Assembly: GCF_006345805.1 (NCBI RefSeq)
Contig: NW_021835955.1
Span: 1-64,000 of the forward strand
From: Octopus sinensis
Lineage: Eukaryota
DNA: 64,000 bases
Direction of reading: 5' to 3'
Positions 15,993 to 52,666 of the stretch are shown in pieces. Position numbers and translations under genes: made by a program. The notes under the pieces are model-generated. The model was not told the origin of the DNA. It did no database searches and saw nothing but the letters and a program-made list of their open reading frames with translations. Each line of letters opens with the position of its first letter. The first letter of the stretch is position 1.

Positions 15993-16254
15993 TGTATGTG
16001 CGTATGTATGTATGTGCATATGTATGTATGCGTGTACATGTATGTGCGCATGCATGTGTGCATGCCTATACGCATGTATGTACCTATGTACTTACGTATG
16101 TATGTGAGTATTTAGGAGAGTGTGTAGACGTGTCTGTGTGTTTGTACATGTGTATGTATATGTGAAAGTATGTTTGTGTAATGATATGTGTCAGTTCAAC
16201 TTGAACTGACAGAATTATATATAATTATATATATATATATATATATATATAAGT

Positions 16255-16830
16255 GGAGGCGCAATGGACTCGTGGTCGTAGGATCGCGGTTTCGATTCCC
16301 AGACCGGGCGTTGTGAGTGTTTATTGAGCGAAAACACCTAAAAGCTCCACGACGCTCCGGCAAGGGGTGGTGATCCCTGCTGTACTCTTTCACCACTCTT
16401 TCTCCCACTCTTTCTTCTGTTGGCCTGCTCGCTTAGCCAGCGGGGTGGTGTCATTCAGAGGCTAAAACAATGCGAACGCATTGAGACCAGCAATGTGTAA
16501 CATTTGATGGTCTGGTCGGTCACGTGATCCCGTGATATATATATATATATACGTGGAGGCGCAATAGACTCGTGGTCGTAGGATCGCGGTTTCGATTTCC
16601 AGACCGGGCGTTGTGAGTGTTTATTGAGCGAAAACACCTAAAAGCTCCACGACGCTCCGGCAGGGGGTGGTGATCCCTGCTGTACTCTTTCATCACTCTT
16701 TTTCCCACTCTTTCTTCTGTTGGCCTGCTCGCTTAGCCAGCGGGGTGGCGTCATTCAAAGGCTAAAACAATGCGAACGCATTGTGACCAGCGATGTGTAA
16801 CAAATATGATGGTCTGGTCGGTCACGTGAT
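16255..16830 (+). mobile_element. Two tandem SINE family B copies (16255-16530, 16555-16830), tail type 2
   Basis: 300-bp period; head GGAGGCGCAAT...GGTTTCGATTCCCAGACC; tail ...GGTCTGGTCGGTCACGTGAT. Confidence 0.9.
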
Positions 16831-16839
16831 ATATATATA

Positions 16840-16947
16840 CACGAGGGTGTATGAAAAGTTTTGAGCTTTCAAGTCTTGTATCTTCATCAGAAGTCTTGTA
16901 GCATGTTTTTTTTTTGAGGCTCAAGACTTTTCATACACCCCCTCGTG
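16840..16947. mobile_element. 108-bp mariner-type MITE
   Basis: TIRs CACGAGGGTGTATGAAAAGTTTTGAGC / GCTCAAGACTTTTCATACACCCCCTCGTG, TA on both sides. Confidence 0.8.
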
Positions 16948-17017
<70 letters not shown>

Positions 17018-20724: not shown

Positions 20725-21018
20725 TCTCTTTACTCTTTACTCTTTTACTTGTTTCAGTCATTTGACTGCGGCCATGCTGGAGCACCGCCTTTAGTCGAGC
20801 AAATCGACCCCGGGATTTATTCTTTTGTAAGCCCAGTACTTATATATATATATACGACAGGCTTCTTTCAGTTTCCGTCTACCAAATCCACTCACAAGGC
20901 ATTGGTCGGCCCGGGGCTATAGCAGAAGACACTTGCCCAAGATGCCACGCAGTGGGACTGAACCCGGAACCATGTGGTTGGTTAGCAAGCTACTTACCAC
21001 ACAGCCACTCCTGCGCCT
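20725..21018 (-). mobile_element. SINE family A, internally deleted
   Basis: Inverse match to 26987-27396. Confidence 0.9.
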
Positions 21019-21204
21019 ATTCACCATATTTTTTATTAACAATTGGTAGTACATGTACTCAATTCGAGAAATTGATAAGCGGACAGGTTTCTGGAGTACT
21101 CGAATCCATGCTAATCTTTTAATTATATCACGTTTTAGTTATTATATGTTTTAAAGTACTCCTTTATTTCCGTGTAAATATATATATGCTTTTGATATCA
21201 TAAT

Positions 21205-21471
21205 ACATCCAGTCATTATTTACATTATTTACATTTGACGGATATTTGTCCTCATCTTGTTTGTTAACACAACGTTTCGGCTGATATACTCTCCAGCCTT
21301 CATCAGGTGTCTTGGGAAAATTTCGGACCTGGGTTCTCATTTCTAAGGTATTTTTCGATGTTGTTGTTGTTGTTGTTGTTATTTAGGTCACTGCCTGGAA
21401 TCGAACTCGGAATCTTGGGGTTAGTAGCCCGCGCTCTTAACCACTAATATAGAATTGTAACATCCAGTCAT
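21205..21471 (-). mobile_element. tRNA-headed SINE carrying a hammerhead ribozyme
   Basis: 12-bp TSD ACATCCAGTCAT (21205-21216, 21460-21471); head TAGTGGTTAAGAGCGCGGGCTACTAACCCCAAGATTCCGAGTTCGATTCCAGG; (AAC)n; hammerhead; (AATGTAAAT)n tail. Confidence 0.85.
21266..21311 (-). ncRNA. Minimal type I hammerhead ribozyme
   Basis: GACAC-CTGATGA-A-GGCTG-gagagtatat-CAGCC-GAAA-CG-TT-GTGTT: perfect core, 5-bp stems I and II, palindromic AACGTT in place of stem III, GUU site. Confidence 0.85.
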
Positions 21472-25507: not shown

Positions 25508-26358
25508 TAGCCAAATTCATCGACATCTAATTAGTGATATGCATAAACAGATCAACGGGATTTTCACTGTCTCTCTCTGCTGTGTAACAAAATCACAGTT
25601 AAGGGAACAGGCTTAGACGGATCGTAGGGGAAAGAGAACTCTGCTGAGCTTGACTCTAGTTTTGTTTTATGAGGGTGCTTAGTTGGCGTAGCATAAGCGG
25701 TAGCATTTGCATTGACCAACGCCGACCGCCGATACTAGCAGCGTCGCGACCGCTGTCCTCTTACGATTTCTCTTGTACCGACGTTGTCGGTTGGTCGGTT
25801 TCGTGTCGGGGTGTCGTTCGCGTTTGCGATGATGAAAAACCGGACCGTGGGGGAAAGAGAACTCTGCTGAGCTTGACTCTAGTTTGGTTTTATGAGGGTG
25901 CTTAGTTGGCGTAGCATAAGCGGTAGCATTTGCATTGACCAACGCCGACCGCCGATACTAGCAGCGTCGCGACCGCTGTCCTCTTACGATTTCTCTTGTG
26001 CCGACGTTGTCGGTTGGTCGGTTTCGTGTCGGGGTGTCGTTCGCGTTTGCGATGATGAAAAACCGTCACTTCCATAGTTACTTCACGCACTAGATGGTAA
26101 AGGGATCGAGCAGTCAATGAGAAGTGATTCATTATCTGGTGCGAATTGCGTGGTGTATGTCAAGCGCCCCGACGGGTGCCGATGCGACCGATGCACAGCA
26201 CTTCATCGAGAAAATTGACGGTCGAAGAGTCTGACTGAGGCGGTATGTGTGTCAAATAACGCAGGTGTCCCAAGGCGAGCTCAGCGTGGACGAAAACCTC
26301 ACGTTGAGCAAATGGACAAAAGCTTGCTTGATCTCGATTTTCCGAAAGAATATGGACA
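25508..26358 (+). pseudogene. Dispersed 28S rRNA fragment with internal duplication
   Basis: TAGCCAAAT..TCG.CATCTAATTAGTGA; GGGGAAAGA...TGAGCTTGACTCTAGT; TAACGCAGGTGTCCCAAGGCGAGCTCAG; GCTTGATCTCGATTTTC are conserved LSU segments in the correct order, with substitutions. Confidence 0.93.
25618..26065 (+). repeat. 223-bp tandem duplication (25618-25840, 25841-26063)
   Basis: Copies differ at only a few positions; CG microhomology at the junction. Confidence 0.95.
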
Positions 26359-26986
26359 CACTCAAAGATCATCACTGTTTGAAGGAAATTGGTTTTCATG
26401 ATGTCTATGTCTTATCTTGTCTTGTCGCCTTTAAAGTGTTCACAGAGCATTGATCTGAAGTTATGATGTCGGCATTTCGAAACTCAATGTGAGCCATCGT
26501 GATACAGATATCTCTTTTCCAGCATTCAGTTGGTTTCCATTCCTCCACATCAACAAACGTTTTCTCAACCACAATTTTAATCTCTATGCTCTCTAACGCC
26601 ATTCATCGATACATCCAGCTGTTCCAAAAAACAGGAGACATAAGAAATTCGTCAAATTCAAGCCAAACACCCTGTATAAAGTTGACAATTAATTGATGAA
26701 CCACTGCAGAGGAAACTTAGAAGCCACATTTACTTTGCATTTCATTCGAATAAACTGTTTAGAGTTTACATCTGTGTCAAAACTCATTATTAGTGAACTA
26801 GCGGGACCTGTATTTATTTCACAGAATTAATGGTAAACCTATTGGGTTATTTCTGAAAATTTTATCCAAAACACCTGAAAGCGCAGCATGTATTGCACCT
26901 GTATGGAAAGGTAGTCCTTCATCTGCTACCCATTGAAAAGTGGAAGGAAATTGGAATACGATGATTTCTTAACGCACTTTATACAG

Positions 26987-51413: not shown

Positions 51414-51658
51414 GTGGGTAAGTAGCTTGCTTACCAACCACATGGTCCTGGGCTCAGTCCCACTGCATGGCACCATGGACGTCTTCTACTATAGCCTCGG
51501 CCGACCAAAGCCTTGTGAGTGGATTTGGTAGATGGAAACTGAAAGAAGCCCGTCGTATATATGTGCGTATATATATATATATATATGTATGTATGTGTGT
51601 GTATATGTTTGTGTGTGTTGTCCCCCCAACATCGTTTGACAACCGATGCTGGTGTGTG
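51414..51658 (+). mobile_element. SINE family A, partial
   Basis: Matches 27001-27232. Confidence 0.85.
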
Positions 51659-51659
51659 T

Positions 51660-52430
51660 CTTCCTTGACTTTTTTTGAGAGGTGATTTAGCATGTCCAAG
51701 TCATCTCTGATATTGCTATTGATGGTTTAAGGAAGGGTTTTCAATAGGATGTCCATAAATAGACTTAGCTTGTGTGTTTCACAGGCTGGGCCAGCTATAA
51801 TGGCTCACAATTTTAGGTTTGGTGTATGCATATATGTCATTGGTGATTTTTTATGGTTTCATTTATAATCTGGCTTTTGTGGATTTTTGGTAGACCATAC
51901 ATAAGTTTAGGTTTGCGTTTAAAATTTGTTGAATAGTTGATTTCTTTTGTTGTTAGTTCTTTTCCATGAATTTTAATTAGTGAGGATGGGGTTTTCATTA
52001 TTTTTTGGTGGTGCTCTCATTCAGCATAGAGATTACTAGATTTTTTATAGTATAATGTGTCCATTATTACTACTGCACTTCCTTTATTTGCTTCCTTAAT
52101 TGTTATATCTTCATTATTTTGAAGTTCTGTTAGTTCCTTCCATTGTGTAGTGCTAAAGTTTGAGATAATTGTCTGTTTATGCATGGTGAGGCAGGGGAAG
52201 TTCTCAATGTGGTTGCAAAATTCATCAAGATTTTTATTTCTTCCTTTATGGAGGATGTGTTCCCCTTTGTTTTTGACTAGTGAGTTATCTTCAGTATTGT
52301 AACTGGTTAATGCTTCTGTGAGTTTAATTTTCTACAGAATTCTATTATACCGGCCTTCACTTCATTTTGGTGGTTCTTCGTGGTGTGGGGGTGAATTTTA
52401 ACCCTTTTCAGAGGATGTCTATCTTTGTGC
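51660..52430 (-). mobile_element. Penelope-like element reverse transcriptase N-terminal remnant
   Basis: KGLKFTPTP, EFCRKL, ITIKEANKGSAVVIMD, MYGLPKIHK, IIAGPACETHKLS in order: characteristic PLE motifs. Confidence 0.9.
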
Positions 52431-52666
52431 TTGTACATCACACCAAAGCAAAGAGATAACACAATATTGGTCAAGAAATTGAGAAATTTTAAAAGAAAAA
52501 AACGAAAAAGTTATTTCTCTCCTCCAAACAATGTCACTATACACAACATTTTATCATATTTTCCTAATATGATAATTTTAATAGACTATGTAACCATATA
52601 ATACAGTCTTCTGTAGGTTTTTCATTCTATTTTGTTTTATATTGTATATATATGATATTATATATA

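What the first reader, a model, noticed from the sequence alone, without database searches (positions are those of the whole stretch)
21205..21471. A tRNA-headed SINE with a built-in, probably dimer-dependent hammerhead ribozyme
Seen, all on the minus strand inside one 12-bp TSD: Pol III tRNA-like head (partial A-box, anticodon-like arm, B-box GAGTTCGATTCC), (AAC)n spacer, a perfect-core hammerhead in the sense orientation, then a ~54-nt tail ending in AATGTAAAT repeats. Known: minimal type I hammerheads with a palindrome instead of stem III occur in Penelope-like elements and retrozymes and cleave best as dimers; typical SINEs carry no ribozyme; TSD plus tandem tail indicates LINE-type TPRT. 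Inference: a SINE that captured a Penelope ribozyme. Cleavage between 21271 and 21270 would cut the head from the tail needed for TPRT, and with one ribozyme per RNA this needs two transcripts pairing through AACGUU, i.e. a possible concentration-sensing brake on its own spread or a source of defined small RNAs. I cannot confirm novelty without a literature and database search.
Basis: partly seen in the sequence, partly recalled or inferred. Interest (0 to 1): 0.85.

Follow-up and report, generated by a model that had tools for sequence, protein, structure and literature searches.

The report
Penelope retrotransposon with a tRNA-type promoter
This short repeat is the end piece of a protein-coding Penelope-type jumping gene, which carries a tRNA-like head that likely serves as its own promoter and likely lets the small-RNA polymerase (Pol III) copy the whole element, shedding thousands of short SINE-like copies on the way.

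Summary
The sequence described is real, but it is not a LINE-driven SINE that captured a ribozyme. It is the terminal repeat (pLTR) of an autonomous Penelope/Poseidon element. In 27 of 30 ORF-bearing loci the RT-endonuclease ORF is followed directly by this head. The 'tail' is the start of the same ORF, read in frame through the hammerhead. Copies are head-to-head two-armed insertions inside one TSD; 66 of 71 have the ~32-nt tail on exactly one arm, and the window copy's first 13 nt are the inverted tail tip. Ribozyme, tail and inversion are published PLE features. New is the tRNA-type A/B-box head. 20 of 30 head-anchored arms stop at the head start, which likely maps the RNA's 5' end. The ~2.7-kb unit has no TTTT (Pol III terminator) on its sense strand, against 33 of 34 intact ORFs of relatives from other organisms that have some. 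Best reading: a PLE likely transcribed by Pol III from a captured tRNA promoter, whose two priming junctions yield short SINE-like and long ORF copies. Polymerase, cleavage and translation are untested. The proposed concentration brake has no support, and this copy is likely dead.

The parts
21460..21471 (-). upstream copy of the 12-bp target-site duplication
21447..21459 (+). inverted second arm: last 13 nt of the PLE tail (outer RT start site), one mismatch to the family
   Evidence: tail rule
21385..21446 (-). tRNA-like head, 5'-truncated inside the A-box; B-box 21408-21397; in the full element it begins about 30 nt after the ORF stop codon
21360..21384 (-). AAT(AAC)7 microsatellite spacer between head and start codon
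21218..21340 (-). first 41 codons of the Penelope/Poseidon ORF (ATG at 21340), read through the ribozyme
21317..21320 (-). TTTT private to this copy (13 of 73 arms have it); would stop Pol III before the ribozyme
21266..21311 (-). minimal type I hammerhead, palindromic AACGUU, predicted cut 21271/21270
   Evidence: relatives with different stem II
21218..21235 (-). two AATGTAAAT repeats = inner RT start site (tail-less end of this arm)
21205..21216 (-). downstream copy of the 12-bp target-site duplication

Best explanation
The feature is a truncated two-armed insertion of the terminal repeat of an autonomous Penelope/Poseidon retrotransposon, whose tRNA-like head likely marks the start of its RNA and likely recruits Pol III. 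Shown: the unit is head - (AAT/AAC)n - ATG - hammerhead - tail - rest of an ORF of about 840 codons (RT, GIY-YIG) - stop - about 30 nt - head again. Inferred from the studied Poseidon element: the RT-endonuclease nicks both strands of AT-rich DNA about 8-16 nt apart and primes cDNA at two internal sites of the RNA, here the tail tip and the AATGTAAAT repeats about 35 nt upstream. One site is used per strand, and the two cDNAs join head-to-head. Inferred: priming at the first pLTR-ORF junction of a transcript that starts at the head runs off the RNA's 5' end after about 280 nt and gives the abundant SINE-like copies; priming at the next junction gives ORF-containing copies. Short copies are therefore likely dead-end products of master loci rather than a self-propagating SINE. 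Inferred and least certain: Pol III reads the whole terminator-free ~2.7-kb unit to make the template. The ribozyme is inherited PLE equipment; because the start codon lies upstream of its cut site, cleavage would separate the AUG from the ORF.
For: ORF followed by head in 27 of 30 loci; first seen in L008/L141. Tail abuts the ORF start in 19 of 30 rows, some of them duplicates of one insertion. Natural copy L234 has a 391-aa open frame from the ATG through ribozyme and tail into the RT, and a relative at 49% identity has the same in-frame ribozyme peptide. The protein is closer to an anole Poseidon protein (36% over 553 aa) than to a local Neptune (27% over 429). 66 of 71 two-armed units are tailed on exactly one arm, none on both. 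5' pile-up: 20 of 30 head-anchored arms stop at the head start and 9 run on into the ORF; 17 vs 6 arms in an independent ribozyme-anchored sample, counted by eye; exact 24-mers number 1,674 in the head vs 723 just 35 nt upstream. About 13 of the 20 stop there without a symmetric palindrome junction (by eye). No TTTT in the 2,390-nt majority ORF strand (expected 2.6 and 3.8 under two nulls, P 0.044 and 0.011; local Neptune ORFs have 9 and 10) nor in head and body. Among Poseidon-like loci of other organisms 1 of 34 intact ORFs lacks TTTT; 19 of 19 with a mapped ribozyme have TTTT in the 3' UTR and 0 of 19 have A/B boxes. Short and long copies share age (about 5-7% from the majority) and variant frequencies. 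Mechanism by analogy: PMC11167929, PMC8557442.
Against: No direct evidence for Pol III. The RNA reads laid (a related organism, standard RNA-seq) come in both orientations equally and show no pile of starts or ends at the head or at the cut site, so they are probably host transcripts. The TTTT test is modest (P 0.01-0.04); low-T relatives can have 0-1 runs (L293, L298, L290), and several control loci are copies of one family. A small palindrome at the head start can itself favour junctions there (about 7 of the 20). 9 of 30 arms, and two upstream pLTRs (L211, L220), extend beyond the head, so longer templates exist. An uncapped Pol III RNA is a poor mRNA; the source of the protein is unexplained. 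The only mapped Penelope promoter is Pol II-like (PMC2377424 abstract). No relative without the head was found in this genome for comparison.
Confidence: 0.68

Rival explanations
1. Ordinary Pol II-transcribed Poseidon element; the tRNA-like head is a passenger (a SINE fragment once inserted in the 3' UTR), and short copies are plain 5' truncations that pile up at a hairpin or palindrome.
For: PLE copies are normally heavily 5'-truncated and inverted; a GC palindrome sits exactly at the head start and about 7 of 20 stops there are symmetric junctions; the head resembles other SINE heads in this genome; RNA reads show no start at the head.
Against: About 13 of 20 stops have no symmetric junction; an RT should stall before a structure, not after copying it (own knowledge); absence of TTTT over ~2.7 kb is rare among relatives.
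Confidence: 0.17
2. A true self-propagating SINE, born from the pLTR and carried in trans by the Poseidon enzyme, coexists with a Pol II-driven autonomous partner.
For: Short copies outnumber ORF-linked ones by 2-3 to 1 at the head boundary; they have head, ribozyme and tail and their own TSDs; the majority short unit has no terminator.
Against: Star-like divergence with no short-copy subfamily and equal variant frequencies in head-anchored and ORF loci; in the anole element the template needs ORF sequence beyond the RT start site (first 172 nt), which short copies lack.
Confidence: 0.12
3. One reading: a LINE-mobilised tRNA SINE that captured a Penelope ribozyme as a dimer-dependent brake.
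For: Head, TSD and AT-rich repeats look SINE-like in one copy; the ribozyme can pair as a dimer in silico (cofold -31.2 vs 2 x -13.6 kcal/mol); minimal HHRs cleave weakly as dimers.
Against: Body and tail belong to a Penelope ORF; the inversion and one-tail rule are PLE signatures; cDNAs pass the cut site.
Confidence: 0.02
4. Retrozyme-like cycle: double ribozyme cleavage and ligation give a circular RNA that is reverse-transcribed beyond unit length.
For: Proposed for PLEs; upstream pLTRs run through the cut site and sometimes past the head.
Against: A circle has no 5' end, so the pile-up at the head start is unexplained; no head-to-tail arrays of the short unit in four close pairs fetched; in vitro the uncut RNA is the main substrate.
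Confidence: 0.06

Closest known systems
Penelope/Poseidon PLEs, esp. Poseidon of Anolis carolinensis (PAc; PMC11167929, parts 1-3 of 4 read)
   Same: Single RT + C-terminal GIY-YIG ORF, tandem pLTR, hammerhead overlapping the ORF start with the cut site downstream of the AUG, two internal RT start sites bounding a 30-40 nt tail, both strands primed, inverted truncated arm.
   Different: The pLTR here carries a tRNA-type A/B-box head and a microsatellite leader; the whole unit lacks TTTT; most copies stop at the head start; the tail is on exactly one arm (in vitro PAc showed no strand difference).
tRNA-derived SINEs (SINE2), incl. octopus OK/OR1/OR2 (original paper not read; OR1/OR2 are CORE-SINEs)
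   Same: Short, abundant, tRNA-like head with A and B boxes, TSDs.
   Different: The 3' part is not a LINE tail but the start of a PLE ORF; the same head is an integral part of the autonomous element; insertions are two-armed inversions.
Schistosome Sm-alpha / Sj-alpha SINE-like elements and non-LTR retrozymes (passages only)
   Same: tRNA-related short repeat with a type I hammerhead; retrozymes are linked to PLE pLTRs.
   Different: Those are non-autonomous and typically head-to-tail tandems giving circular RNA; here the ribozyme is minimal, copies are head-to-head, and the autonomous parent carries the identical unit.
TRIMp3: Cassandra, Helenus, Ajax (PMC10886601, passages)
   Same: A Pol III promoter from a small RNA gene sits inside a terminal repeat.
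   Different: Non-autonomous LTR elements of 0.3-1.3 kb; that paper argues autonomous partners must use Pol II. Here the promoter-like head is in a protein-coding PLE.

Membership tests
Penelope/Poseidon PLE | single ORF with RT and C-terminal GIY-YIG-type endonuclease, no zinc-finger linker | tested here: met
   783-codon open frame in the majority strand; natural 551-aa frame aligns with an anole Poseidon protein over RT and EN, 36%; linker absent by inspection
Penelope/Poseidon PLE | partial tandem forming pLTRs | tested here: met
   head after ORF in 27 of 30; tail before ORF in 19 of 30 rows; full unit L198
Penelope/Poseidon PLE | minimal hammerhead in the pLTR overlapping the ORF start | tested here: met
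Penelope/Poseidon PLE | 30-40 nt tail at one end and inverted truncated arm | tested here: met
   66 of 71 units tailed on one arm, 0 on both
Penelope/Poseidon PLE | internal Pol II-like promoter in the pLTR (shown for D. virilis Penelope) | not testable with these tools
   sequence shows A/B boxes instead; polymerase not determined
tRNA-derived SINE (SINE2) | tRNA-derived head with A and B boxes | tested here: met
   aligns with genomic tRNA-Arg(TCT) and tRNA-Ala(TGC), z about 7-8 vs shuffles, among 15 distinct tRNAs of 6 isotypes tried; below Rfam and ARAGORN thresholds
tRNA-derived SINE (SINE2) | 3' end shared with a LINE partner | tested here: not met
   3' part is the PLE pLTR and ORF start
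tRNA-derived SINE (SINE2) | short copies propagate as their own lineage | tested here: inconclusive
   no separate subfamily seen, same variant frequencies as ORF loci; sample of 224 arms
tRNA-derived SINE (SINE2) | transcription by Pol III | not testable with these tools
   indirect only: 5' pile-up, no TTTT
Non-LTR retrozyme / Sm-alpha | head-to-tail tandem short units, each with a hammerhead | tested here: not met
   units are head-to-head; four close pairs were independent insertions
Non-LTR retrozyme / Sm-alpha | circular RNA made by double self-cleavage | not testable with these tools
   standard RNA-seq only
Minimal type I hammerhead of PLEs | intact core, bulge before stem II, palindrome in place of stem III | tested here: met
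   relatives keep the core with different stem II sequences
Minimal type I hammerhead of PLEs | self-cleavage | not testable with these tools
   no pile of read ends at the site in two RNA runs, a weak test
TRIMp3 (Cassandra, Helenus, Ajax) | non-autonomous LTR structure with PBS and PPT | tested here: not met
   autonomous PLE structure

The most novel reading that the evidence does not exclude
A protein-coding, autonomous retrotransposon that has replaced its Pol II promoter with a tRNA promoter and purged Pol III terminators from its whole 2.7-kb unit, so that Pol III makes its template (and perhaps, through the unstructured AAT/AAC leader, an uncapped mRNA). It thereby sheds its own SINE-like progeny from its terminal repeat: a direct route from an autonomous element to a Penelope-mobilised SINE.
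Probability: 0.4. Interest if true: 0.85.

Novelty: new variant of a known kind. Interest (0 to 1): 0.66.

Why it matters
Autonomous retrotransposons are held to need Pol II, and SINEs to ride LINEs. A Penelope element with a tRNA promoter in its repeat and no Pol III terminator would break the first rule and show how a SINE can bud from inside its own partner. The family also offers tens of thousands of natural integration products (rough estimate) with a strict one-tail rule, which constrains the still unresolved PLE integration mechanism. The head-to-head copies make double-stranded RNA that appears heavily A-to-I edited in a related organism. Repeat annotators would file the short copies as SINEs and miss the link.

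Tried and rejected
LINE partner: never needed; the tail mapped to a PLE. Neptune and Nematis-like PLEs as partner: 50 GIY-YIG loci share no head, ribozyme or tail. Core conservation among copies: neutral, uninformative. One versus two RNA molecules per insertion: arms are as far apart as random copies (9.3% vs 9.4%) but share non-CpG variants (position 230: 5 both, 4 one only, 39 neither; 23 positions tested, possible duplicate pairs), which fits one RNA or one master locus and cannot show dimers. Ribozyme cut as RNA 5' end: no pile-up. Expression: no RNA holder listed; raw reads of a relative were laid instead. In-frame ribozyme peptides in relatives are enriched over shuffles but confounded by gene calling, and the overlap is already published for PAc. 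Other Poseidon families in this genome: an outside query returned mostly this family; its loci were not obtained. Donor of the head: not identified. Relatives in viral contigs: none; first metagenome scan empty. Earlier findings: none. Literature: ten searches showed no report of a tRNA promoter in a PLE pLTR or of a PLE-mobilised tRNA SINE. Repbase, Dfam, SINEBase, subscription papers (Ohshima and Okada 1994 not looked up; two cited ribozyme papers not held) and bioRxiv supplements could not be seen, so the family may already be catalogued there.

Full report
Observation. Rfam and ARAGORN do not call either RNA motif. The head aligns with genomic tRNAs at z about 7-8 and no single isotype stands out. 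The host is a 2.7-Gb animal genome; that its repeats look like an octopus's is my recall and comes from no call.

Family. A search with the element gave 3,619 candidates, 40 scored, at about 90% identity. An exact 34-mer of the ribozyme occurs 1,551 times. Only 3 of 67 arms not selected on it carry that 34-mer, so arms number roughly 35,000, with a wide margin. Divergence is star-like, about 9% between arms.

Architecture. Most copies are two arms joined head-to-head inside one TSD. Arms end either at the tip of a ~32-nt tail or about 35 nt earlier in the AATGTAAAT repeats. Of 71 two-armed units, 66 have one end of each kind, 1 has two tail-less ends, 4 are unclear and none has two tails; 46 have a TSD of 8 nt or more, against 21 of 700 controls (six duplicate loci dropped). 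The window copy obeys the rule: its main arm is tail-less and its first 13 nt are the inverted tail tip. A short tailed arm beside a long tail-less arm means neither arm is a copy of the other, so both were primed on RNA. Inverted truncated arms and a 30-40 nt tail at one end are the described PLE signature (PMC8557442, passages).

Parent element. Neptune-type families did not match. A Poseidon-type RT was found upstream of copy L008. In the 30 best ORF loci the head follows the stop codon in 27, and head plus body in 25. At the other end the tail continues directly into the ORF (19 of 30 rows, with duplicates). An ATG upstream of the ribozyme opens the frame: 391 codons in natural copy L234, 41 in the window copy. 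A relative at 49% identity has the same in-frame peptide. The protein is 36% identical to an anole protein whose N-terminus matches the PAc template printed in PMC11167929, and 27% to a local Neptune. That paper (parts 1-3 of 4 read) shows the ribozyme overlapping the ORF start, two internal RT start sites that bound the tail, extension of both strands, protein-assisted cleavage that is dispensable for insertion, and a need for ORF sequence beyond the start site. Ribozyme, tail and inversion are thus known features, and the 'SINE body' is a pLTR.

What is new. First, the pLTR carries a tRNA-type head. None of 19 relatives from other organisms with a mapped ribozyme has A/B boxes upstream of it (62 of 80 fetched loci examined, the 18 shortest left out; several are copies of one family). 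Second, arms stop at the head start: 20 of 30 in a sample taken in chromosome order, 9 continuing into the ORF and 1 jumping from mid-ORF; 17 against 6 in a second sample; 1,674 against 723 exact 24-mers across the boundary. About 7 of the 20 are symmetric junctions at a small palindrome; the rest are not. Third, the sense strand of the majority unit has no TTTT in 2,390 nt of ORF region or in head and body, and no place has TTTT in over 15% of 59 fragments. Codon-shuffling nulls give P 0.044 and 0.011, local Neptune ORFs have 9 and 10 runs, 33 of 34 intact foreign Poseidon ORFs have at least one, and 19 of 19 have one in the 3' UTR.

Mechanism. Shown: structure, linkage, one-tail rule, pile-up, lack of terminators. 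Inferred by analogy: double nicking and two internal priming sites. Inferred from the pile-up: the RNA starts at the head, so priming at the first junction gives ~280-nt copies and priming at the second gives ORF copies. Short and long copies have the same age and variant frequencies, and short copies lack the ORF stretch that PAc needs, so they are likely dead ends. Inferred, least certain: Pol III makes the full template. How the protein is made is open; host Pol II read-through, or cap-independent initiation on the AAT/AAC leader (poly-CAA leaders enhance translation, own knowledge), are the options. Cleavage would cut the AUG off the ORF, so a brake on translation is conceivable, but cDNAs pass the cut site freely.

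Against. No read pile marks the head start or the cut site, and reads come in both orientations (a related organism, about 6% of each run, fragmented library). Some templates extend beyond the head. The TTTT statistic is modest and low-T relatives can have few runs. The core decays neutrally in copies, as expected. This particular copy has lost half its A-box and gained a TTTT before the ribozyme, so it is likely inactive.

Comparison. It is a member of the Penelope/Poseidon clade. The short copies look like a tRNA SINE but fail the LINE-tail test. Sm-alpha/Sj-alpha are earlier SINE-like elements with hammerheads (PMC2770079, passages), and retrozymes have been tied to PLE pLTRs (bioRxiv 10.64898/2026.07.22.740005, part 1 of 5; PMC7229834, passages). 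Cassandra, Helenus and Ajax put a Pol III promoter in a terminal repeat but are non-autonomous (PMC10886601, passages). PMC4209133 (parts 1-2 of 4) defines the minimal ribozyme. A recent octopus repeat annotation mentions no ribozyme in its main text and holds no matching motif in the one supplement searched (PMC13282606). Ten library searches showed no tRNA-headed PLE; Repbase, Dfam, SINEBase and most subscription journals were out of reach.

Verdict. Real, and a new variant of a known kind. PLE identity about 0.95; RNA start at the head about 0.75; Pol III across the whole unit about 0.4. Interest 0.66.

Noticed in passing
window 20900-21020 (-): A second, unrelated tRNA-headed SINE 185 bp from the finding; the same head recurs in many fetched loci.
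   Followed up: no
window 16235-16830 and 16842-16949: Two tandem copies of another tRNA-headed SINE in (TA)n, followed by a ~110-bp inverted-repeat element with a CUGAUGA-like motif.
   Followed up: partly
window 25618-26446 (+): Decayed 28S rRNA fragment with a 223-bp tandem duplication.
   Followed up: no
window 51592-52434 (-): Decayed Neptune-type PLE ORF fragment.
   Followed up: no
L091, L037, L038, L047 (G000): Young Neptune-type PLE family with several intact 781-codon ORFs; its hammerhead-like motif has a variant core (UUGAUAA) and it ends in (TA)n.
   Followed up: partly
L039 960-1130; L240-L259: A younger (97-99% identical) T-rich short hammerhead element, often inverted and set in (TA)n, without a tRNA head; no ORF of its own found in 20 loci.
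   Followed up: partly
L079 1357-1622 (reads of runs X21, X22): About 600-680 reads per million map to the element, with A>G and T>C changes at about 30 places each and 11-27% frequency at nine places checked versus 0.1-2% in contigs of another run: an A-to-I editing signature on the inverted arms, though organisms differ.
   Followed up: partly
L064, L065, L169, L224: Another repeat of several hundred bases repeatedly inserts into the (AAT)n spacer.
   Followed up: no
P0001, P0015, P0017, P0018, P0020, P0024, P0026, P0037: N-termini of many Poseidon proteins spell the hammerhead in one of three frames, so the AUG often lies upstream of the cut site.
   Followed up: partly
L002 (G000:C9036): Same insertion and flanks on a second contig, probably an allelic or duplicated assembly piece.
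   Followed up: no
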